NCBI GenBank assembly: GCA_000182565.2
Contig: KQ257450.1
Strand: one strand, 5' to 3'
DNA length: 64,000 bases
Source of the DNA: Spizellomyces punctatus DAOM BR117
Taxonomy: Eukaryota
Shown: positions 434 through 54,356 of the stretch, one piece after another
Numbering within the stretch: position 1 is the first letter of the stretch
How the letters are laid out: every line of letters starts with the position of its first letter
Notes under the pieces: generated by a model
Told to the model about the DNA's origin: nothing
The model's input: only the letters and a program-made list of their open reading frames with translations
Database searches by the model: none
Made by a program: the position numbers and the translations under genes

Positions 434-910
434 NNNNNNNNNNNNNNNNNNNNNNNNNNNNNNNNNNNNNNNNNNNNNNNNNNNNNNNNNNNNNNNNNNN
501 NNNNNNNNNNNNNNNNNNNNNNNNNNNNNNNNNNNNNNNNNNNNNNNNNNNNNNNNNNNNNNNNNNNNNNNNNNNNNNNNNNNNNNNNNNNNNNNNNNNN
601 NNNNNNNNNNNNNNNNNNNNNNNNNNNNNNNNNNNNNNNNNNNNNNNNNNNNNNNNNNNNNNNNNNNNNNNNNNNNNNNNNNNNNNNNNNNNNNNNNNNN
701 NNNNNNNNNNNNNNNNNNNNNNNNNNNNNNNNNNNNNNNNNNNNNNNNNNNNNNNNNNNNNNNNNNNNNNNNNNNNNNNNNNNNNNNNNNNNNNNNNNNN
801 NNNNNNNNNNNNNNNNNNNNNNNNNNNNNNNNNNNNNNNNNNNNNNNNNNNNNNNNNNNNNNNNNNNNNNNNNNNNNNNNNNNNNNNNNNNNNNNNNNNN
901 NNNNNNNNNN
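434..910. other. Assembly gap (N run)
   Basis: Run of N. Confidence 1.
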
Positions 911-7383: not shown

Positions 7384-7483
7384 NNNNNNNNNNNNNNNNN
7401 NNNNNNNNNNNNNNNNNNNNNNNNNNNNNNNNNNNNNNNNNNNNNNNNNNNNNNNNNNNNNNNNNNNNNNNNNNNNNNNNNNN
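7384..7483. other. Assembly gap (N run)
   Basis: 100 N preceded by a poly-C run. Confidence 1.
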
Positions 7484-8389: not shown

Positions 8390-9213
8390 NNNNNNNNNNN
8401 NNNNNNNNNNNNNNNNNNNNNNNNNNNNNNNNNNNNNNNNNNNNNNNNNNNNNNNNNNNNNNNNNNNNNNNNNNNNNNNNNNNNNNNNNNNNNNNNNNNN
8501 NNNNNNNNNNNNNNNNNNNNNNNNNNNNNNNNNNNNNNNNNNNNNNNNNNNNNNNNNNNNNNNNNNNNNNNNNNNNNNNNNNNNNNNNNNNNNNNNNNNN
8601 NNNNNNNNNNNNNNNNNNNNNNNNNNNNNNNNNNNNNNNNNNNNNNNNNNNNNNNNNNNNNNNNNNNNNNNNNNNNNNNNNNNNNNNNNNNNNNNNNNNN
8701 NNNNNNNNNNNNNNNNNNNNNNNNNNNNNNNNNNNNNNNNNNNNNNNNNNNNNNNNNNNNNNNNNNNNNNNNNNNNNNNNNNNNNNNNNNNNNNNNNNNN
8801 NNNNNNNNNNNNNNNNNNNNNNNNNNNNNNNNNNNNNNNNNNNNNNNNNNNNNNNNNNNNNNNNNNNNNNNNNNNNNNNNNNNNNNNNNNNNNNNNNNNN
8901 NNNNNNNNNNNNNNNNNNNNNNNNNNNNNNNNNNNNNNNNNNNNNNNNNNNNNNNNNNNNNNNNNNNNNNNNNNNNNNNNNNNNNNNNNNNNNNNNNNNN
9001 NNNNNNNNNNNNNNNNNNNNNNNNNNNNNNNNNNNNNNNNNNNNNNNNNNNNNNNNNNNNNNNNNNNNNNNNNNNNNNNNNNNNNNNNNNNNNNNNNNNN
9101 NNNNNNNNNNNNNNNNNNNNNNNNNNNNNNNNNNNNNNNNNNNNNNNNNNNNNNNNNNNNNNNNNNNNNNNNNNNNNNNNNNNNNNNNNNNNNNNNNNNN
9201 NNNNNNNNNNNNN
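8390..9213. other. Assembly gap (N run)
   Basis: Run of N followed by a poly-C run. Confidence 1.
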
Positions 9214-24580: not shown

Positions 24581-26543
24581 ATGTGTTCTTTTGGCTGAAG
24601 AGGTTTTTGTTCTTCTGCGTTTTTATTCTTTTACGCAGGATTTCTTTTGCATGTCCCATATGTGTGTGTGTGTATAGGCCATGCATGTCCCTCGACCACG
24701 ACTCGTTCTCTTGTTTTTCATCCTAATCCATCTTGTATGTACAGTAGATGGTATTGCATAACTCTTCATTATCCTCATCCCAACGTTTGTTTGTAATAGG
24801 TCCTGGGAATCGTTCTCGTCGTGGGATTCCATCACGATAGTGCTACATGGGCTACCATCGCTTTAGGGGTCTTGTTTGGGATCCTTTGTGTGGTTGGGGC
24901 TTTAGGGATTTGGAAGAGATCAAGGGCCCTGTTGATTTTGGTATGTATTTGGAGTTGGGGTTCGCGTTAGGGTTTTAGGGTTCGGGTTGGGATTGGGATT
25001 GGGGTTGGGCTTAGGGTTAGGGTTGGGATTGGGATTGGGTTGGGGTTGGGGTTCGGGTTAGCGTGTGGGTTCAAGTTGGGTTCGTCTTCGCGTTCAGTTA
25101 GGGTTCGGGTTGCGATTAGCGTGTGGGTTTAGGTTGGGATTGGGTTGGGATCAGGGTCATGACTCGCGAATGCTCGTCAAGGAGATCTGGGGGAGAGTGA
25201 CATGGAAAGGCAGGACTGTGGGCCATGGCTCGCGTACGTTCGTCATGGAGTGCACGCTGGCAGAGCCAGACGTCTTGAAAACTGGATTGCATTCCTTGAT
25301 CAAGAATCCATTCATCTCATTGACGTTTTCTTACCTTCTTTACACTCTTTTATCACACTAGTATGCATGTCTGGGAACAGTCTCTGTCGCATTGGGCATC
25401 GTCCACCTGTTGATGATCACAAACGTCTTTTATCCCTCGGTCATCGATCAAGTCCAGCCCGATCGCGTTCTAATCGTTGGCAAGACAGTGTGTGGGTACT
25501 ATGCTGACCAAGGGTATTCGGCTTGGTATTCGAGTGCGCATGGGAATAGTACATCCATGTCGGGCGGGAATACGACATCCACGTTGCGGCCTCCGATCAT
25601 TGCCAAAAGACAGGCAAACAACGGTACCACGATACCTGGGACCAATGCAACCAGCGGGACACCAAACACCAATGCCACGACCACCGCGACACTGGGAAAA
25701 CCAATGGAAATGCAAGTCGGTATCCCACTCTATGCCGCAAATGTGGCCTTTATCGGTATCGGTATCCTAGGCGCAACCTTTCTCCCCATCTCGCGCCGCC
25801 TGATTCGCTCGTCAAACCTCTTTCACTCGGACCCAGAAGCCAACCACCTCACATCAACTCTCGGATCAGTGGCGGCATCATCGACACCAGGAACACTCCA
25901 AAAACCCAAGAATGCGGACTCGTTGAAACGTAAACCAACGAGCATGACGTCTATTCCAAGTTATTACCATAAAGCTGGGACAAAGGACCTTGAACCCAAT
26001 CTCCGCGTTACGGCTGTTGGTAAAGTTCCGCCTCCCGTCTCATCCAATTCTAGCCGTCAACCCACATCCCCTCAACAACAATCCCCTCAACAACAACAAC
26101 AACAACAACAACTTACTGTACAAACCTCTTCCCGTCCCACCTCACCATCCACCGCACCTCAAACCCGAAAACCAATGAAATCCATTCACAACATTTACAC
26201 CATCCAATGTAAAACCTGCTCCCAAACCCTCCCGCTCACACTCGCATCGTCCCATACCTGCCCCCCCTCTCCCTCCCCTTCTTCTCCGACGTTATCCTCA
26301 GCTTCACCCACAAGCACAACATTCGGCTCTTTGGAACCCCTCTACACCCAACGCGCGAAAAGACCCTACGTCCCCGTTCTTTCTGATGAAATCCGATTGG
26401 AAAGGAATGAACTTGTTCGTGTGTATGAGGTGTATGAGGATGGGTGGGGGGTGGGTGAGAATGAGAGTGGGGAGATGGGTGCGTTTCCGTTGGGGTGTTT
26501 GGACTCGAATCAGATTCGGGATCGGAGGGAGAGTTTACGGTAA
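24581..26543 (+). CDS. Multi-pass membrane protein with S/P/Q-rich cytoplasmic tail and C-terminal SH3 domain
   Basis: Hydrophobic exons at ~24800-24940 and 25362-25800; SH3 motif AKRPYVPVLSDEIRLERNELVRVYEVYEDGWGVGEN..GEMGAFPLGCL. 5' exons uncertain. Confidence 0.7.
24955..25160 (+). repeat. Degenerate telomere-like G-rich tandem array (GGGTTA/GGGTTG/GGGATT/GGGTTC) inside an intron
   Basis: For example ttagggttagggttgggattgggattgggttggggttggggttcgggtta. Confidence 0.8.
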
Positions 26544-39381: not shown

Positions 39382-40552
39382 ATGTGTGTGATATTCTTCA
39401 CTTTGGGACATCCAAAGTACAAGCTGTAAGTCTTCCTGCAAGATCGTTCTCTACTGTAGGGCTCTCGTCTGACCAAATATCCCTACTAGCATAATAGCAG
39501 GCAACCGAGACGAGTTTATTGACCGTGTAGCCCAACGTGCGCACTTCTGGTCCGAAATAGGCGCGCCCAATGTCCTCGCCGGAACCGATCAAGGCAAAAT
39601 CCATGTGGGAGTTCCATTGGTTCAATCACCTGACCCTGATGCAGACAAAGTGGGAAAGGTACTAGAGTATTCAGGTGCCAAATACGAAAGGGAAACCATT
39701 ACGAAAGCGACTCCCCAAGTTGCCGCGGAGACGTCGGGCGTTGATCAATCGGATGAAACGAATATAAATAGTAGTTCTGAAGCGCTACCACTTTCCTCCC
39801 CAGACCCATCTAGCGCTCCGCTTCAAACACATGGCACCTGGATGGGTATAAACAAAGCCACTGGACATCTTGGATTCATTACAAATTTTCGGGAACACCC
39901 TTCGCTAGTTAATCCAACTGCTCTAACCAGAGGTTATCTCGTTCGCGATTTCCTTCTTTCATGCGCGGATCCACAGACGTATGCGGAAACAGTAGCCTCA
40001 CAGCAATATCGATACAATGGCTTCAATCTCGTTCTTGGCGCCGTCAATCCAGGAGGGAATGAAGATGTGGTCGGGTGGTATTGTGGAAATAGGGGTCCTG
40101 TGCGGGATGAACCTCCCACATTGTTGAAAAAGGGTGTTATATACGGCATGTCAAACGGTGTGTTGATGGAAAAACGATCAGATTGGCCAAAAGTTGAGAG
40201 GGGGAAAGAGTTACTTGAGCATCTGCTGTCAAATCCGCCGGATGACCACGAAACTCTGATAAACAGTCTTCTTGATGTGCTCCGAGATAAAACCACCTAC
40301 CCCGACTCTGACCTCCCTTCTAACATGTTCAACTACGATTTAGAAAGATCACTATGTCCCATTTGTATTGACAGACACCGGGCGAAAGGGGGGTATGGAA
40401 CACGCACACATACCGTGCTGCTGGTGGATAACGAAAATCGAGGGCGTTTTGTAGAAGTAGATAGGTATCGGCTAGTTGATGGATCATCGGGTAAAAAGGA
40501 GGTGGAAGAAAAAGATGATAGGGTTGATTTTAGCTTCATACTTGGCTCTTAG
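39382..40552 (+). CDS. TANGO2: TANGO2/NRDE (DUF833) family protein; two exons
   Basis: MCVIFF...KL|IIAGNRDEFIDR, GTWMGINK..G....ITNFRE, RGYLVRDFL, YNGFNL, YGMSN, WPKV, YGTRTHTVLLV. Confidence 0.92.
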
Positions 40553-46931: not shown

Positions 46932-47617
46932 AATTTGTTGCGAAGACTTTGGATTATTCGAGCCGACAAACGACGACCCCCACCACCAGAAACCACCTAC
47001 ACAGTCGGAAAACAGCATAATGAGGTCAAGAATTTAGAATGAAATTGGGGGGAAGATGAGGAAAGACGACGGCGGAAATGCCAAGGTGGAAGGCGGCTAA
47101 ATTGGAGGGAAGGAAAGCAACCTGTCGAAAATCCATGCAGCGGGCTCTTTTAAGGTGCCCTCCACAAGTCTCCGAATGCAGTACACATGTGAAAATTGCG
47201 ATACTAGATATTATTTCTTTATCCTCCCCTATCTGATAGATGTCCTTTGGGGGGTTATTTTCCATCACAATCCTTTAAACCTTGCTCTCGTGCTCTCCAC
47301 AAAACTGGCTGCGCACGGGCTTTTCCCCCCTACCCCTCTATGGCCGCGTGCAACTAGGCGTGTGCAGGGCGATAACTCATTCACGTGACTATAAGTTGAT
47401 GAACAGCTCCCCATGCACAGACTACAGCATTAAAGTGCTTTCAACTTTATAAAATGATGTGCAATTCCACGTGCGTAAGATGGGCATGCGATAAACTCAA
47501 AGGCTGGAAGGTTCTCCCGGCAAGAGCTCGAGCATTCCTCCATGGGTTTGACTCCTACATATCCTTGCCCGCGAGCAGCGGTCCACAAGCATGTGCCTTG
47601 GACAAATTTAATTTCCA

Positions 47618-47647
47618 TAGTACGGAGCCGGTGGGTATTGGCACTAG
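47618..47647 (+). repeat. Left terminal inverted repeat (including terminal TA)
   Basis: TAGTACGGAGCCGGTGGGTATTGGCACTAG is the reverse complement of 49825-49854 with one mismatch. Confidence 0.97.
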
Positions 47648-47807
47648 TACATAGATTCCAATCAATTTAATCATAATTTTACTCGATTTAGACTTATGGT
47701 TCAATGCACAAAAGATGCACCACCCATTGAAAAACGGGTCCAATATGTGCGGCATCTATGAGGATTGAGGAATTTTCGCAGTTGCGGCGAGTGAGTTGCC
47801 ACATTTC

Positions 47808-47815
47808 TATATAAA
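47808..47815 (+). promoter_or_regulatory. TATA box of the Fanzor gene
   Basis: TATATAAA ending 66 nt upstream of the ATG, followed by a pyrimidine-rich leader. Confidence 0.6.
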
Positions 47816-47881
47816 CCCCTCCACTATCGTTCTCTCCCTGCCCATTTTCCCAGGCTTTCATCTTTTCCCACAGATATCATC

Positions 47882-49765
47882 ATGCCACCAAAGAAGCAAA
47901 GGCTCGAAAAACTCGACAAACCCACCTTAGTGACCTTACACACCTGCAACAAGACGTCCTTTGCAAAAGCTTTCCTGCCAAACGAGATCTACCACCAACG
48001 GCTTCTAGATTACATCGCCATCATTCATGAACTTGCTGACCACGCTTCCCACGCTCTCAAATTCTACATCCTATCTGCACCATCCTTTCCCATGGTAGAT
48101 CAAGATACAATCGAAGCGATTCTCTATCTTCTCAACAAGGGGGAGGCTTGGCATCCAAGAAAGGAAGCAAAGAAGGCATGGCGGGATTGTTTGCTGCCAT
48201 ATGTTCAACGGTACTGCCAAATCGTCGGCTTTGTTCACCCCAATCTACGAGGCGAGCAGCAATCAGTCAATTACCTGACAGCGAGTATGATGACGAACCT
48301 GAAAGTCAACATTCAAGAACATTTCATGACGATGCTGCTCCGCTATATCAATCTACGGCTCGACGTGAGGGGACGGAAAGGGCCTCCAAAGAGTGAAGCA
48401 CGGAAAGCTTTCTTTGCTCGGCTACGCTACTTGAAGTCAATTTTCCTTTTCGATATCGTGCCCGAATTGCTGGATGACTTGACTGCTGAAGAGAGTGAAC
48501 TTCTAGAAGAGATTTGGTCACTCGATCGGCCTTTTCTTGTTGACAATCCACTCGCCTACGCAGTTGTCGTCAATCCAATGTCCTTTTTCCCTGCGTACTG
48601 TCGGTTGTCAAGCCTATATGAAAAGCATGGATTTCGACAGTTCAGCGCGATACCTCTGCGCCGCTCTCTCATCCAAAGCCATGTGCGGATCGACACCATC
48701 ATTCTCTACCAGCATATCCTTTGCATCGCACGAAGAGAAGCGGAAACTGTTGAAAAGGTCGATTTATGGTTGCGCGTCTGTAATCTGCGGAACAAGGCTT
48801 TTAGATCTCGTCGTGGAATGTGTTTTGAAGGCTCGATCACGACGGACGGTACCTCGGTGTCAGTTTACTTGAAACATCCTGAAGCCGACAAGTATGGAAA
48901 GCGTGGCGGTGGGAAAAAGTCGGCAAAGACCTTAGAAGCTGAGGTGAAGGCAGTATATGTGGAGAACAACTTGCCTGCTTGTCGAGCAGCAGAGAACTTT
49001 GTCGTTATCGACCCAAACAAGCGCGATCTTCTCTACTGCCAAGACAACAAGGGCACCATCTTCCGTTACACCGCCAATCAACGCTGCAAGGAGACTGGAA
49101 GCCGTCGATTTGCAAAAGAGCGGCAGCGGATGAAAGCTGGCGGTATTGACCTCATAGAATCACGTATCCCAAGCCACAAGACGATGAACCTCATGGACTT
49201 TACTCGCTACCTTCTTGTTCGCCGCGCAGATTCGGATCGTCGCAAGGAATTCTACTCCCACCCTGCCCACACGCGATGGAAATGGCACGCATTCATAAAC
49301 CGTCAGAAGAGCGAATCAGACCTCATATCCAACATGCACAACAAGTTTGGGAACTTTACCATTGTGATGGGAGATTGGAGCGATGCCGGTCGAACTGCGA
49401 GATTTCAGACCTCATCAAAGACGAAAGGCTGGCGCACCCTCTTTAAGCGCAACAGGATCAACTGCTTCCTTCTCGACGAGTACAAGACCTCATCTGTTTG
49501 CCCTTGCTGTTCCTCTGACGTTGAAAAAGGCTTCCAAACACGACCTCATTCAAGACCTTATCGACGACGAGAAGGCAAGATTGAAAAAGTCCACGGATTG
49601 CTGGGTTGTACCAACCCTAACTGTTTGCAGCAAGCCTGGACATCGGGAATGCGCTACTGGAATCGAGATACGCTGTCAACCTGCAACATGCTGATGATCG
49701 TGCAATCAATGTTGGATGGACATGGTAGACCAGAGGTGTTCAGCAGGAGCCGTAGCGTAGCGTAG
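47882..49765 (+). CDS. Fz1: Fanzor1 RNA-guided DNA endonuclease (eukaryotic TnpB/Cas12 homolog), 627 aa
   Basis: N-terminal NLS-like PPKKQR; ITTDGTSVSV; RuvC-I VVIDPNKRD (D377); VMGDWS; RuvC-II LLDEYKTS (E533); Zn-finger CPCC...CTNPNC; RuvC-III WNRD (D596). From memory, closely resembles S. punctatus SpuFz1. Confidence 0.96.
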   Translation: MPPKKQRLEKLDKPTLVTLHTCNKTSFAKAFLPNEIYHQRLLDYIAIIHELADHASHALKFYILSAPSFPMVDQDTIEAILYLLNKGEAWHPRKEAKKAWRDCLLPYVQRYCQIVGFVHPNLRGEQQSVNYLTASMMTNLKVNIQEHFMTMLLRYINLRLDVRGRKGPPKSEARKAFFARLRYLKSIFLFDIVPELLDDLTAEESELLEEIWSLDRPFLVDNPLAYAVVVNPMSFFPAYCRLSSLYEKHGFRQFSAIPLRRSLIQSHVRIDTIILYQHILCIARREAETVEKVDLWLRVCNLRNKAFRSRRGMCFEGSITTDGTSVSVYLKHPEADKYGKRGGGKKSAKTLEAEVKAVYVENNLPACRAAENFVVIDPNKRDLLYCQDNKGTIFRYTANQRCKETGSRRFAKERQRMKAGGIDLIESRIPSHKTMNLMDFTRYLLVRRADSDRRKEFYSHPAHTRWKWHAFINRQKSESDLISNMHNKFGNFTIVMGDWSDAGRTARFQTSSKTKGWRTLFKRNRINCFLLDEYKTSSVCPCCSSDVEKGFQTRPHSRPYRRREGKIEKVHGLLGCTNPNCLQQAWTSGMRYWNRDTLSTCNMLMIVQSMLDGHGRPEVFSRSRSVA

Positions 49766-49779
49766 ATTGGTTAGATTAG

Positions 49780-49870
49780 GTTTTCCGAACCGGTTGTCGC
49801 GCGGTTCAATCCCTGGTGCGGGTGCTAGTGCCAATACCCACCGGCTCCGCACTATCAATATAAAGGTAAT
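49780..49870 (+). ncRNA. omegaRNA: ~75-nt scaffold (49780-49854) plus ~15-nt guide from the flank
   Basis: GTTTTCCGAACCGGTTGTCGCGCGGTTCAATCCCTGGTGCGGGTGCTAGTGCCAATACCCACCGGCTCCGCACTA lies just after the stop codon, ends at the element boundary and has self-complementary stems. It matches the recalled SpuFz1 omegaRNA layout. Confidence 0.88.
49825..49854 (+). repeat. Right terminal inverted repeat (including terminal TA)
   Basis: CTAGTGCCAATACCCACCGGCTCCGCACTA. Confidence 0.97.
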
Positions 49871-49895
49871 TAGAATTTACTATCTACAGAAATAT

Positions 49896-51421
49896 CTACT
49901 TTTTTTCATGGTCCCCCTCGAGGATCCGGCGTTTTCTACGGGGATACCGATCAAGTACGGTAACGCCCGCTGTCTTTTTTGGGCGCCTCGGCTGTGGGGC
50001 CTCCTCACGTTTACCCTCTAGCACAATATTCGACTTGTTCTCTACAGATGATACCAATCGATGTTCAAATTGGCGCAGGTCGGCGGTAAATAGCACCTGC
50101 GTGCGCTGATGAGTACATGACAGCAAAGGTTCCATTTTCAAAGTCACTTACTGAATGCGCCCATCCAGCGTGTGTCCCAAAGATCGTTCGAAAGCGATCC
50201 CCGATCGCTAAGTAGTTCTTTTGCGTGAGAGTTTTTGAAGCGAGGCCGGACAACTTGTAGTCTCTTTTCGCAATCTAGTGCGCAACTGTAATGTTTAGCT
50301 TCTGTCTCAAACTAATATCGACCCAAGATCACATTGCATACCTGCCATACATGCGTATCAACGGGTATCGCTCCTGGCTTATCCATGCTATACGTATCTA
50401 TCAACAAATGCAGACTACGAAACAAATATTCAAACCTCCGCATATACCTCATTAAACAGACACAGTCTGCAACCTTTGGTCCCACTAAATAAAATTTCAA
50501 ATTCAAGAATAGTTATTGTCCATCATCTACCTGTAAGCTCGACTCGACTACTGCTTAGCTTACCACCAGCCAGCTTCAACAACTCATCCCTGCATTCTTC
50601 ATATGGCAAATTTCTCAATCCTCTTAACCAGGTTTCGTCATGGTGCTCCATGATGTACCTCGCCGTTTGCGATATGTATTTTGCACGGTAGCCGAAACCA
50701 AGCTGCCGCAACTCGTTTTCCACATTTTCTTGTGCAAGACGCGCCACCGTCGGAAAGCTATAGAAGGGCTTCGATATCTCATCAACAGTACCGATCTCGG
50801 TTCCATAATGTTGACATAGTTTGCTAACCTAAAGATGGCACATAAATGACGGGAAGCTTTATGAAAGGGAAAACTGGCTATTGTAATACCATTGTAGTGA
50901 TTCGCTGAATGTTGTTGTTTGAGGTACAAATGAACGTGAACAAATTTTCTACCGGATCTTGCCTTCAAGCGAAAGCATGTCAAAATATATATATATATTT
51001 GTGGCGAGAATCGGATGTCGAGGTCTGCATACCTTAATATCCGGATGCCCATAAACCGTCCCGCCTTTTTCTCAAAGTTGGCATCCGTCCGCCATTGTTT
51101 ATACAGTTCCCCAAGATCTACATCAAGCTGAAAATAGTCTCTCAATAACTCCGCAACATCGCCGACATTATCGCCCGGTGTGCGATACAATATGTCGTCA
51201 TCTACCTTGTCTCACTGGTCAATACATGCAGAAACTGCCTGCCTATTTCTCGAAACGACAATATGCTCACCAGTCTGACGCAACGTTATTATGCGCCCCG
51301 ACAATACACTCGTCCACTGATTATCTCCTGTGTTCACCCATCGGAAGCTTTGCCCACAGTTGAGGGTCGTGTCAAGACGGAGCTCTTCTGGTTTTACAGA
51401 AAGGCAATGCCAGGTGGTCAT
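49896..51421 (-). CDS. OGG1: 8-oxoguanine DNA glycosylase/AP lyase; multi-exon
   Basis: [37 protein letters not shown], Hh[50 protein letters not shown]. Confidence 0.96.
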
Positions 51422-51898: not shown

Positions 51899-54356
51899 AT
51901 GCCAAATCCACGCGATATCGGGTTCAAACAACTGGTCCTTGACTTTTCGGCAAAACCAGGGAAGATGCCGCCTTCCTCTGAGAACGAAAAGAAGCAAGAA
52001 AAGAAGCAATCTCCACTTTCATCTTCGTCTTCCCTGGTGGACAGGACGGCTGCCTCCCCAACGTCTCGCTTTTCTCCATATGTGTCAAGGATACCCCCAA
52101 CTATCTCTGGAGGTGCATTGGAGCACCGCGGACGAAATGCTTCTCTGGGCTTGAAGAAAAGCGCGAGTGGGTCAAAAATGGTCATTGATTTAACGGGCGA
52201 TGAAAATCGGCATACAGATCCTCTGCTTTCTGTGCAGTACAGCAGCAACATTCCAGGAGAGGGTGCTGGGACTCTCGTTAATTTAACGACTGAAGGACTG
52301 ACAGCTTCCGTCATTCCATCAAAGCCAGATTTGGCTGCATACAAATATGCACCCTCAAACGCTACATCTATGTCCTCCGGGTGGTCGCAATCAACTTCAA
52401 CCACCGTAGCTAGCACGACAATGACCCGTCTTATTGGTGCGAGCACTGCTGCCTCCTCGTCATCGAGATTCAAGCACCGCGAAGTAGAGCTCTCAAAGCA
52501 TTTTTTAAAGAATACATTGGGTCAGGATGGTAGGACCAGATTAAACGTGGCATCAACAGCAAAGAGCACGATCCAGTTGTCAGAGGAGCAGGAAAATGTG
52601 GCGAAGCTGGTAGTTGATGGCCAAGAGAGTATATTCTTTACAGGGAGTGCCGGTAAGTGACTTAATATAGTTAAACGTTTTGAAAGATGTTCAACCTTCA
52701 AGGGCAATGACACAATTGATGATGCAGGAACGGGGAAGAGTGTACTGCTTCGAGAATTGATAAAACGTCTGCAGAGTAAATACGCAAAGGAGGAAATAGC
52801 AATTACAGGTGACAGTAACAGGTACACCAGTTCTCGCATTCTCTTGCTGACCCAATTGTAGCCTCTACAGGGATCGCTGCTTGCAACATTGGTGGCATTA
52901 CCTTGCATTCCTTTTCTGGTTGTGGTATAGCAAAAGGTATACACGCACTGTCGTCACTGGATGAATCAAACCACCCATTCTCTTCTCTGCATCCAGAGAC
53001 GGCAGCAGTGCTCGCACAACGTGTCATAGCCAATAATCGGTCCAGTACACGGTGGCGAAGCACCAAGGTTCTAATAATCGATGAGGGTGAGGACTAGAAA
53101 CATATTTGGTTTTATTCGTGATGAAGCGTGTTCTTTGTCTCGAACTAATGATTATGATGTAGTATCGATGGTTGAAGGAGACTTTTTTGATAAACTGGAA
53201 TACGTTGCCCGCTCAGTACGTCGCAGTCAGAAGCCATTTGGAGGAGTCCAGGTAGATAACATGGCCACTCAGCTACAACTCATCAACGACGGTGGCTTTG
53301 CTCACATCGCTTCAGCTTGTTATTTGTGGGGATTTCCTGCAACTTCCTCCAGGTGCGTTGAATGGTTATTGGCGCCCTTGATTTCCATTGCCCAATGCAG
53401 GCAGCACTCATATCCCCACATAGTCTCCAAAAACGCTAGATACGCTTTTGAAGCCACGAGCTGGGGAAACTGCGTAAAGCGAACAATACAGGTAGCTTAA
53501 CTGCGGCAAGAAACTCTATCATCGCAGCTAACATGTAAGGCTCGCTAAATAGCTGAACCACGTGTTTCGGCAACGGGATTCCACCTTTGTCAATCTCTTA
53601 AACGAGATGCGCATCGGAGTAGTATCACCAGAATCAGAAAAGGTGTTGAGGAACCTATCCAGGGAGTTGAGATTTGAAGACGGATTGGAGGCAACCCAAT
53701 TGTAAGTCAATTGGCTGATATGGTGTCCTGTACAAGAAAACATTCTCTGACATGCATCTGCTCGCTTAAGGTTTGCGCTCCGCAATCAAGTCGACCAGGC
53801 GAACGCTGCCCGCTTAGCCAACCTCCCTGGTCAAAGCAAGATATTCAAAGCTCAGGACCATGCCAAAACTGAGGCGGACCGAGCAAAGTTAAAAGATTTC
53901 ATGGCGCCCGCCGTCCTCGAACTCAAACTAGGCGCCCAAGTGATGTTAATCAAAAATCTTGATGAAAAGCTTGTCAATGGATCGTTGGGCCGTGTCGCCT
54001 CGTTTGAAGAGAAGACTGGATATCCGGTGATTGAGTTCATAATCAACGGGAGCCCCAAGTACATGGAGATTACGAATGATGACTGGACGCTGGAGGTACC
54101 GGGTCAAGGTGTTGTGGCATCTCGAAACCAGGTACCCTTAATTTTGGCCTATAGTATGAGTATACATAAGAGTCAAGGGCAAACGCTTGAGAGGGTCAAG
54201 GTGGACTTGGGCAGAGTGTTTGAAAATGGGCAGGCTTATGTTGCCCTTTCGAGGGCTACCAGTTTGGAGGGATTGCAGGTTTTGAACTACTCCCGAAATA
54301 AAGTCAGGGTTGATCGGAGGGTTGTAGAATTTCATAAAAAGTTAGGAACGGTTTAG
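51899..54356 (+). CDS. PIF1: Pif1-family 5'-3' DNA helicase; multi-exon
   Basis: LSEEQ, IFFTGSAG|TGKS, TA|STGIAACNIGGITLHSFSG, LIIDE|VSMV, PFGGVQ, GDFLQLPP, VFRQRD, QVPLILAYSMSIHKSQGQTL, GQAYVALSRA. Confidence 0.97.

What the first reader, a model, noticed from the sequence alone, without database searches (positions are those of the whole stretch)
47618..49874. Complete eukaryotic RNA-guided nuclease system (Fanzor1 + omegaRNA) inside a TIR-bounded, transposase-less element
Seen: an intronless 627-aa ORF in an otherwise intron-rich window. It carries an NLS-like N-terminus, a full RuvC triad (D377 in VIDPN, E533 in LDEYKTS, D596 in WNRD) and a Cys4-type Zn finger. It is enclosed by 30-bp TIRs and has its own TATA box and a structured RNA running to the right end. 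Known: Fanzors are eukaryotic TnpB/Cas12-related nucleases guided by an omegaRNA from the element's right end (SpuFz1, Saito et al. 2023). Inference: this is an intact, potentially active and programmable copy. The family is described, but from memory this protein differs from reference SpuFz1 in length and many residues, so it may be an uncharacterised variant.
Basis: partly seen in the sequence, partly recalled or inferred. Interest (0 to 1): 0.95.

Follow-up and report, generated by a model that had tools for sequence, protein, structure and literature searches.

The report
Known Fanzor1 transposon copy in Spizellomyces

Summary
A 627-aa intronless ORF (47882-49765, +) lies between 30-nt inverted repeats (47618-47647 and 49825-49854, 1 mismatch, none expected by chance). 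The protein is 86.5% identical (539 of 623 aligned positions) to SpuFz1, the Fanzor1 solved in PDB 8GKH. It keeps the catalytic residues (D377, N379, E533, D596) and 6 of 6 TAM-reading residues. The 75 nt at 49780-49854 match all 16 omegaRNA scaffold nucleotides named by position in the published structure; no other register within ±12 nt matches more than 6. They fold into the published two-hairpin shape. CA plus the repeat's TA makes the published CATA TAM at the left end.

The exact protein is already in NCBI and UniRef, and its paralogues are named S. punctatus DAOM BR117. Bao & Jurka (2013) defined SPu-1 as the founding Fanzor element. Saito et al. (2023) catalogued 42 Fz loci (19 full-length) and 134 ghost loci in this genome, with the same repeats, CA motif, omegaRNA and lack of a transposase.

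Activity of this particular paralogue is untested. Four of 24 published RNA-contact residues differ from SpuFz1. Interest is low.

The parts
47616..47619 (+). CATA: the conserved CA just outside the left repeat plus the repeat's first TA. It equals the published SpuFz1 TAM (5'-CATA).
   Evidence: Sequence read (left flank ends ...TTTCCA, repeat starts TAGTAC). The CA motif and the CATA TAM are stated in PMC10432273.
47618..47647 (+). Left 30-nt inverted repeat (left end). Bao & Jurka instead count the terminal TA as a target-site duplication and a 33-bp TIR starting at 47620.
   Evidence: exact match, 0 expected by chance; for the alternative reading.
47808..47815 (+). TATATAAA, a TATA-like motif inside the element, 67-74 nt upstream of the ATG.
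   Evidence: only occurrence in the window. Function is inferred, not shown.
47882..49765 (+). Fanzor1 ORF, 627 aa, a paralogue of SpuFz1. Catalytic D377/N379/E533/D596; zinc-finger C540, C543, C576, C581.
49780..49854 (+). 75-nt omegaRNA scaffold: stem-loop 1 (nt 8-28), 6-nt linker (29-34), stem 2 (35-75) with an 8-nt apical loop. It starts 14 nt after the stop codon and includes the right repeat.
   Evidence: 16 of 16 nucleotides named by position in the published structure text match in this register; the 24 other registers give at most 6. for the fold. for the published description.
49825..49854 (-). Right 30-nt inverted repeat (right end), 1 mismatch to the left repeat.
   Evidence: In one search a contig of another copy (run X1) matches up to 49854 and then runs on unlike, so homology between copies stops at this base.
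49855..49869 (+). Predicted 15-nt guide (TCAATATAAAGGTAA), flanking DNA outside the element. It is found once in the window, at this place only.
   Evidence: The guide length of 14-15 nt comes from PMC10432273 section 7. The position is an inference from the scaffold register.

Best explanation
This is one full-length copy of the non-autonomous SPu-1 (Spu-1) DNA element of Spizellomyces punctatus DAOM BR117. It encodes an intact paralogue of the RNA-guided dsDNA endonuclease SpuFz1 (Fanzor1).

Shown for the reference paralogue, inferred for this copy: transcription from the element yields the nuclease mRNA and an RNA of about 90 nt, made of the 75-nt scaffold (49780-49854) plus about 15 nt of flanking DNA (49855-49869). 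The protein binds the scaffold, reads a 5'-CATA TAM, pairs the guide with the adjacent DNA and cuts both strands with its RuvC site (D377/E533/D596).

My inference from the sequence: if the terminal TA is a target-site duplication, the vacant site would read ...CCA-TA-TCAATATAAAGGTAA. That is CATA followed by the guide's match. In the occupied locus the guide's match is preceded by ACTA, and the CATA is followed by the repeat. The locus would then spare itself and cut only an empty allele, which is the homing logic shown for bacterial TnpB. Mobilisation must come in trans from an unidentified transposase.
For: Identity:
- The best PDB match is 8GKH (SpuFz1), E = 0, 1222.6 bits over residues 2-623.
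- P0003 (SPPG_07727, 638 aa) is identical to the 8GKH chain over residues 2-638. The window protein shares 539 of 623 aligned positions with it. BLASTP gives 84% and MAFFT 87%.
- The exact 627-aa sequence is held by NCBI, UniRef, nr and EukProt on a 2,242,449-bp contig.
- 16 of the 42 hits are named S. punctatus DAOM BR117, and two of them lie on a contig of that same length.

Functional residues, using the positions the paper names mapped:
- 4 of 4 metal-site residues are the same.
- 6 of 6 TAM-contact residues are the same.
- 12 of 13 heteroduplex backbone contacts are the same.
- 20 of 24 omegaRNA contacts are the same.

RNA: 16 of 16 named scaffold nucleotides match in register. The fold has the published 6-nt linker and 8-nt stem-2 loop.

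Element: 30-nt repeats, CA upstream and a single ORF, as in PMC10432273 section 7. About 2.1 kb, TIRs and a putative TA duplication, as in PMC3627910.

Selection: of the 40 best-supported substitutions between this ORF and laid contigs of other copies or relatives (40 of 94; the other 54 were not shown), 24 are at third codon positions. 23 are synonymous, against 22% expected for random changes.
Against: - No expression or activity data exist for this copy. All laid runs are assembled contigs that fragment on this repeat family, and none spans the stretch.
- Four published RNA-contact residues differ: R419 to E413, R550 to C542 (inside the CPxC of the zinc finger), K562 to Q552, and M607 to T597. 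One DNA-backbone contact also differs, R260 to Q253.
- The protein is 11 aa shorter than the reference, with 15 gap positions.
- Local Pfam-A and NCBIfam scans give no hit, and Rfam gives none for the RNA. These libraries may simply lack the families. The collection's precomputed label for 41 of the 42 proteins is PF26935.1, whose name the tool does not show.
- The homing reading needs the TA to be a duplication. Saito et al. count it inside the repeat, and if there is no duplication the vacant site would lack CATA.
- The selection count is crude: only contigs at least 90% alike were laid, and only 40 of 94 sites were listed.
Confidence: 0.8

Rival explanations
1. The copy is a recently immobilised, intact-looking relic. 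The ORF is still open, but the protein is impaired in omegaRNA binding or zinc-finger folding, so the locus contributes at most an omegaRNA used in trans by other paralogues.
For: 4 of 24 omegaRNA-contact residues are changed, including R550 to C inside the CPxC motif. There are 15 gap positions against the reference. Saito et al. report RNA-only 'ghost' loci whose omegaRNAs work with SpuFz1, so RNA-only contribution has a precedent. No expression evidence could be obtained here.
Against: There is no stop or frameshift in 627 codons. All catalytic and TAM residues are kept. Most differences from the reference are shared with other paralogues or with the family consensus, for example Y559 with P0005 and P0006. 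Substitutions among copies are biased to synonymous sites.
Confidence: 0.15
2. The locus has been co-opted by the host. Its guide or its transcript acts on the neighbouring gene. The element sits about 40 bp from where a minus-strand open frame ends (49896), below exons of an OGG1-like glycosylase gene, in convergent orientation.
For: The OGG_N Pfam hit at 50627-51211 (-) and the minus-strand frames running down to 49896 place the guide region in or near that gene's 3' end.
Against: SpuFz1 cleaves only dsDNA, not RNA (figure legend passage). The insertion has the generic architecture of all copies. Nothing links the two genes except position.
Confidence: 0.03
3. The Fanzor protein is itself the transposase of the element.
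For: It is the only ORF in the element, and no transposase was found within Spu-1 repeats (Saito et al. discussion).
Against: Bao & Jurka argue that TnpB/Fanzor are not DDE transposases and that TnpB is dispensable for transposition. The reference protein is an RNA-guided nuclease.
Confidence: 0.02

Closest known systems
SpuFz1 (S. punctatus Fanzor1, SPPG_07727; PDB 8GKH, 9CEU-9CEZ) with its omegaRNA
   Same: Same genome and same element family. 86.5% identical over the whole length, with identical catalytic and TAM-reading residues. The omegaRNA scaffold matches at all 16 nucleotides that the structure paper names. Same 30-nt repeats and CATA at the left end.
   Different: 627 versus 638 aa, with 84 substitutions and 19 gap positions. 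R419E, R550C, K562Q and M607T at RNA contacts, and R260Q at a DNA contact. It naturally carries R303 where the engineered SpuFz1-v2 has C310R; R is the family majority, 6 of 10 aligned sequences. The guide differs (TCAATATAAAGGTAA). No biochemistry exists for this copy.
SPu-1 element and SPu-1-1p (Bao & Jurka 2013), the prototype Fanzor1 element
   Same: About 2.1-2.2 kb, a single ORF of about 630 aa, terminal inverted repeats, TA at both ends, no transposase, multi-copy.
   Different: Bao & Jurka describe a 633-aa consensus-type protein and 33-bp TIRs with a TA duplication. Here the match is 30 nt if the TA is counted, and it extends imperfectly to 43 nt. Whether this copy is one of their 17 full-length copies, 9 of them intact, cannot be told without their additional files.
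IS200/IS605-IS607 TnpB with its omegaRNA (e.g. ISDra2)
   Same: RuvC plus zinc-finger nuclease. The guide RNA is made from the element's right end with the guide taken from flanking DNA. The TAM matches the left-end junction. Homing logic against vacant sites (search-listing abstract of 10.1101/2023.11.20.567912; Saito discussion).
   Different: The host is a eukaryote. The N-terminal/REC region is larger. The omegaRNA does not overlap the ORF here (it starts 14 nt after the stop) and lacks the TnpB pseudoknot (legend passage). The element has inverted repeats and no TnpA. Sequence similarity to bacterial TnpB was not tested here.

Membership tests
Fanzor1 (SpuFz1 group) | Full-length sequence homology to a characterised Fanzor1 | tested here: met
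   8GKH chain: E = 0, 1222.6 bits, residues 2-623. Also PpFz1 at 6.7e-53 and GtFz1 at 3.9e-07.
Fanzor1 (SpuFz1 group) | RuvC catalytic residues (SpuFz1 D383, E541, D606, plus N385) | tested here: met
   D377, E533, D596 and N379 align to them. The residue list comes from PMC10432273.
Fanzor/TnpB | Bao & Jurka motif D-X(125,275)-[TS]-[TS]-X-X-[C4 zinc finger]-X(5,50)-RD | tested here: met
   D377, then 158 residues, then T536 S537 S538 V539, then C540/C543/C576/C581, then 13 residues, then R595 D596 (positions; motif).
Fanzor1 (SpuFz1 group) | RuvC/WED/REC/NUC fold | tested here: inconclusive
   The AlphaFold2 model from the 10-sequence alignment has mean pLDDT 45.5 and pTM 0.37, too poor to search with. 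The fold is inferred from 86.5% identity to the cryo-EM structure.
Fanzor1 (SpuFz1 group) | omegaRNA scaffold at the right end, ending at the repeat's last base | tested here: met
   16 of 16 named nucleotides match in register; the 24 other registers give at most 6. Two-hairpin fold with a 6-nt linker and an 8-nt loop.
Fanzor1 (SpuFz1 group) | omegaRNA expressed and bound by the protein | not testable with these tools
   Only assembled contigs of public runs could be laid. The paper's supplementary data are closed.
Fanzor1 (SpuFz1 group) | TAM- and guide-dependent dsDNA cleavage | not testable with these tools
   This needs a bench experiment. 6 of 6 TAM-contact residues are conserved.
SPu-1 / Spu-1 element | About 2.1-kb element, single ORF, 30-33-nt terminal inverted repeats, CA upstream of the left repeat, TA termini, no transposase | tested here: met
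   against the descriptions read.
Pfam OrfB_Zn_ribbon (PF07282) / curated HMM families | Hit above the gathering score | tested here: not met
   0 families in local Pfam-A at E up to 1 and 0 in NCBIfam. The collection's precomputed label is PF26935.1, name not shown. The depositor's molecule name for 8GKH includes 'OrfB_Zn_ribbon domain-containing protein'.

The most novel reading that the evidence does not exclude
This natural paralogue may be functionally different from reference SpuFz1, for example more active or with a shifted omegaRNA preference. It naturally carries arginine at the site of the activity-raising C310R change, and it has four altered omegaRNA contacts, including an extra cysteine in the zinc finger. 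In addition, its locus layout (CATA at the left junction, guide match at the right junction, ACTA before the guide match in the occupied state) would make it a directly testable case of Fanzor homing against its own vacant site in a eukaryote.
Probability: 0.1. Interest if true: 0.4.

Novelty: already known. Interest (0 to 1): 0.1.

Why it matters
It matters little as a discovery. The element family, the nuclease, its RNA, its TAM, its structure and the census of its copies in this very genome are all published. Three things have some value:

- It is a positive control showing that a sequence-only reader can recognise a Fanzor system and place its omegaRNA to the base.
- It gives a residue-level statement of how this paralogue differs from the engineered reference. 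Natural paralogue variation is a cheap source of variants for engineering.
- The junction sequences of this locus fit a self-sparing, vacant-site-cutting (homing) scheme. Saito et al. raise a comparable role only as a possibility, and it remains untested in any eukaryote as far as the texts I read go (discussion passages).

Tried and rejected
- Whole-genome search of the window's own assembly: no genome is held. Other copies' DNA, and therefore a covariation test of the omegaRNA, could not be obtained.
- Metagenome scan for relatives' loci: 3 loci, L001-L003, from 42 pattern matches. None includes DNA downstream of the ORF, so they were useless for the RNA or the right repeat.
- Laying public runs: all four runs are assembled contigs that break up on this repeat family (232, 341, 9 and 1 pieces laid), and no piece spans the stretch.
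- One 221-nt contig from a metatranscriptomic library (X14) is identical to 48489-48709. The tool itself warns that this does not show transcription, and I do not count it as evidence.
- Small-share runs (X10-X17) were not used for any habitat or strain statement.
- Structure prediction: mean pLDDT 45.5, too poor, so no fold search was run.
- Pfam, NCBIfam and Rfam: no hits.
- Looking for the omegaRNA sequence in the main text of two papers: absent. I used the position-named nucleotides instead.
- PMC10711439 holds none of my search terms.
- Literature search was badly posed (any of two terms). It served only to surface PMC13434818, which engineers the reference protein and ghost omegaRNAs; the passages I saw do not mention testing other full-length paralogues.
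- Supplementary files (Saito Supplementary Data 1-2, Extended Data Fig. 3; Bao & Jurka additional files) were not available. They would say whether this exact locus is listed and whether it is one of the four loci with small-RNA reads.
Full report
**What is in the sequence**

A single uninterrupted ORF runs from the ATG at 47882 to the TAG at 49763-49765 on the + strand and encodes 627 aa. The only other frames of 80 aa or more inside the element are two short ones nested in it. The 30-nt word at 47618-47647 occurs exactly once more in the 64-kb window. That second copy is reverse-complemented at 49825-49854 with one mismatch, and none of 100 dinucleotide shuffles gave a match. An ungapped extension gives arms of 43 nt at 86% complementarity. 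The element is therefore 2237 bp from repeat end to repeat end, of which 1884 bp are ORF. That leaves 234 bp upstream of the ATG and 89 bp downstream of the stop. TATATAAA occurs once in the window, at 47808-47815.

**What the protein is**

Against all PDB chains the best match is 8GKH, the MBP fusion of Spizellomyces punctatus Fanzor1 (E = 0, 1222.6 bits, query residues 2-623). It is followed by Parasitella parasitica Fz1 (6.7e-53) and Guillardia theta Fz1 (3.9e-07).

The exact 627-aa sequence is already in NCBI, UniRef, nr and EukProt, on a contig of 2,242,449 bp. A search of the large protein collection returned 42 proteins at E up to 1e-10, out of 8000 candidates scored. Sixteen of them are named S. 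punctatus DAOM BR117 (SPPG_ tags). Two of those lie on a contig of the same length as the window's. The window is therefore the S. punctatus DAOM BR117 assembly.

P0003 (SPPG_07727, 638 aa) is identical to the 8GKH chain over residues 2-638, so it is the reference SpuFz1. The window protein shares 539 of 623 aligned positions with it (86.5%), with 15 gap positions in the window protein and 4 in the reference. BLASTP gives 84% and MAFFT 87%.

**Functional residues**

I took the residue numbers from the passages of Saito et al. 2023 that I read (PMC10432273) and mapped them through alignment A1.

| Class of SpuFz1 residue | Same in the window protein | Changed |
|---|---|---|
| Metal site (D383, N385, E541, D606) | 4 of 4 (D377, N379, E533, D596) | none |
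| TAM contacts (R96, Q129, Q130, N133, R291, Y345) | 6 of 6 | none |
| Heteroduplex backbone contacts | 12 of 13 | R260 to Q253 |
| omegaRNA contacts | 20 of 24 | R419 to E413, R550 to C542, K562 to Q552, M607 to T597 |

R550C puts a fifth cysteine inside the CPxC of the zinc finger (CPCC). The Bao & Jurka motif D-X(125,275)-[TS][TS]-X-X-C4-X(5,50)-RD is met, with spacings of 158 and 13 residues.

The window protein naturally has R303 at the position of C310. C310R is one of the three substitutions of the engineered SpuFz1-v2. R is the majority residue there, in 6 of the 10 aligned sequences.

**The RNA**

Saito et al. [quoted passage not shown] It is followed by a variable 14-15-nt guide, giving an RNA of 88-90 nt. 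Their structure text names 16 scaffold nucleotides by position: C7, U16, G17, U18, C19, G20, G22, A29, C32, C34, U35, G37, C40, G70, A72 and A75.

With nucleotide 1 set at 49780, the window matches 16 of 16. The 24 other registers from -12 to +12 match 0 to 6.

Folded alone, 49780-49854 gives two hairpins (8-28 and 35-75) joined by a 6-nt linker, and stem 2 has an 8-nt apical loop. The energy is -28.9 kcal/mol, z -2.19, and 6 of 200 shuffles fold at least as well. The linker and the loop agree with the paper's description. With the 14 nt before it and the guide added, the fold is not better than shuffles (z -0.90, 40 of 200). The energy alone is therefore weak evidence, and the register match is the strong evidence. 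Rfam 15 has no family for it.

The predicted guide is 49855-49869 (TCAATATAAAGGTAA) and is unique in the window.

**Element ends and likely working**

The left flank ends in CA and the repeat begins with TA, which makes CATA (47616-47619). That is the TAM determined for SpuFz1, and the paper reports that mutating any of its bases abolished cleavage. Saito et al. note the conserved CA upstream of the left repeat. Bao & Jurka read the TA at both ends as a target-site duplication.

If it is a duplication, the vacant site would read CATA followed by exactly the 15 nt that the locus's own omegaRNA carries as its guide. In the occupied locus that sequence is preceded by ACTA, and the CATA is followed by the repeat. 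The locus would then spare itself and cut only an empty allele.

This is my inference from the sequence and from the TnpB homing model (abstract in the listing; Saito discussion). It has not been shown. It fails if the TA is not duplicated.

No transposase lies within the repeats here. Saito et al. found none in any Spu-1 element, so mobilisation must be in trans and its agent is unknown.

**Constraint on the family**

Laying four public runs gave only fragmented contigs, as expected for a multi-copy family. One contig of another copy in run X1 matches up to 49854 and then continues with unlike sequence, which places the family's right boundary at the last base of the repeat.

The tool listed the 40 best-supported substitutions out of 94. 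Of these, 24 fall at third codon positions. Twenty-three are synonymous, against 22% expected for random single-base changes in this ORF. That suggests purifying selection on the protein. The count is crude because of ascertainment at 90% likeness and because only part of the list was shown.

**Comparison with what is known**

Bao & Jurka (2013) discovered Fanzor in exactly this element family. They describe SPu-1 as about 2,100 bp with a single ORF (SPu-1-1p, 633 aa), 33-bp TIRs, a putative TA duplication and 17 full-length copies, nine of them intact.

Saito et al. (2023) counted 42 Fz loci (19 full-length) and 134 ghost loci in DAOM BR117. They reported about 82% identity among the proteins with catalytic sites kept. 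They also described the 30-nt repeats, the CA motif, the omegaRNA, the CATA TAM, dsDNA cleavage, genome editing and the cryo-EM structure. Further structures followed in 2024 (PMC11423790, passages), and engineering of the reference protein in 2026 (PMC13434818, passages).

This locus fits that description in every respect, so it is an already-known kind in an already-catalogued genome. Without the closed supplements I could not verify that this very locus is on the published list, or whether it is one of the four loci with native small-RNA reads. I found no passage reporting biochemistry on a full-length paralogue other than the reference (main texts only).

**Verdict**

- Observation: confirmed.
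- Interpretation: supported.
- Novelty: none beyond residue-level differences of one paralogue.
- Interest: 0.1.

Noticed in passing
window 434-910, 7384-7483, 8390-9213: Runs of N (477, 100 and 824 bases), that is, assembly gaps. They explain the low-GC bins and the six-frame 'open' stretches there.
   Followed up: yes
window 49896-51211 (- strand): A multi-exon OGG1-like 8-oxoguanine DNA glycosylase gene lies convergent with the Fanzor ORF. The Pfam OGG_N hit is at 50627-51211 (7.2e-12). Further minus-strand open frames run down to a stop at 49896, about 40 bp from the element's right end. The predicted guide may therefore lie in or next to that gene's 3' end. The exon structure was not worked out.
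   Followed up: partly
window 53751-54353 (+): An open frame with a Pif1 2B-domain hit (5.4e-11) and a weak helicase hit. It could be the cellular Pif1 or the helicase part of a Helitron-type element.
   Followed up: no
window 39473-40549 (+) and 25362-26540 (+): A TANGO2-family frame (7.1e-51, matched in two stretches) and a frame with an SH3 domain. These are ordinary host genes and show that the element sits in gene-dense DNA.
   Followed up: no
window residue R303 of the ORF (codon at 48788-48790): This paralogue naturally has arginine where the engineered SpuFz1-v2 carries C310R. R is the majority residue among the 10 aligned sequences (6 R, 2 C, 2 Q), so that engineered change restores the family consensus.
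   Followed up: partly
window 49801: In run X2, 3 contigs (all of the depth there) lack one base at 49801. This is G22, the bulged base of stem-loop 1 in the predicted fold and one of the bases the paper lists as contacting the protein. In run X1 none of the depth lacks it. It may be variation between copies or strains in the omegaRNA.
   Followed up: no
P0008, P0017, P0021-P0035: Many relatives at 37-73% identity come from environmental or run assemblies on contigs of only about 2.0-2.9 kb, roughly the size of a whole element. This is what a multi-copy repeat gives when assembled. P0028 is named Phlyctochytrium arcticum, so the family extends to other chytrids.
   Followed up: no
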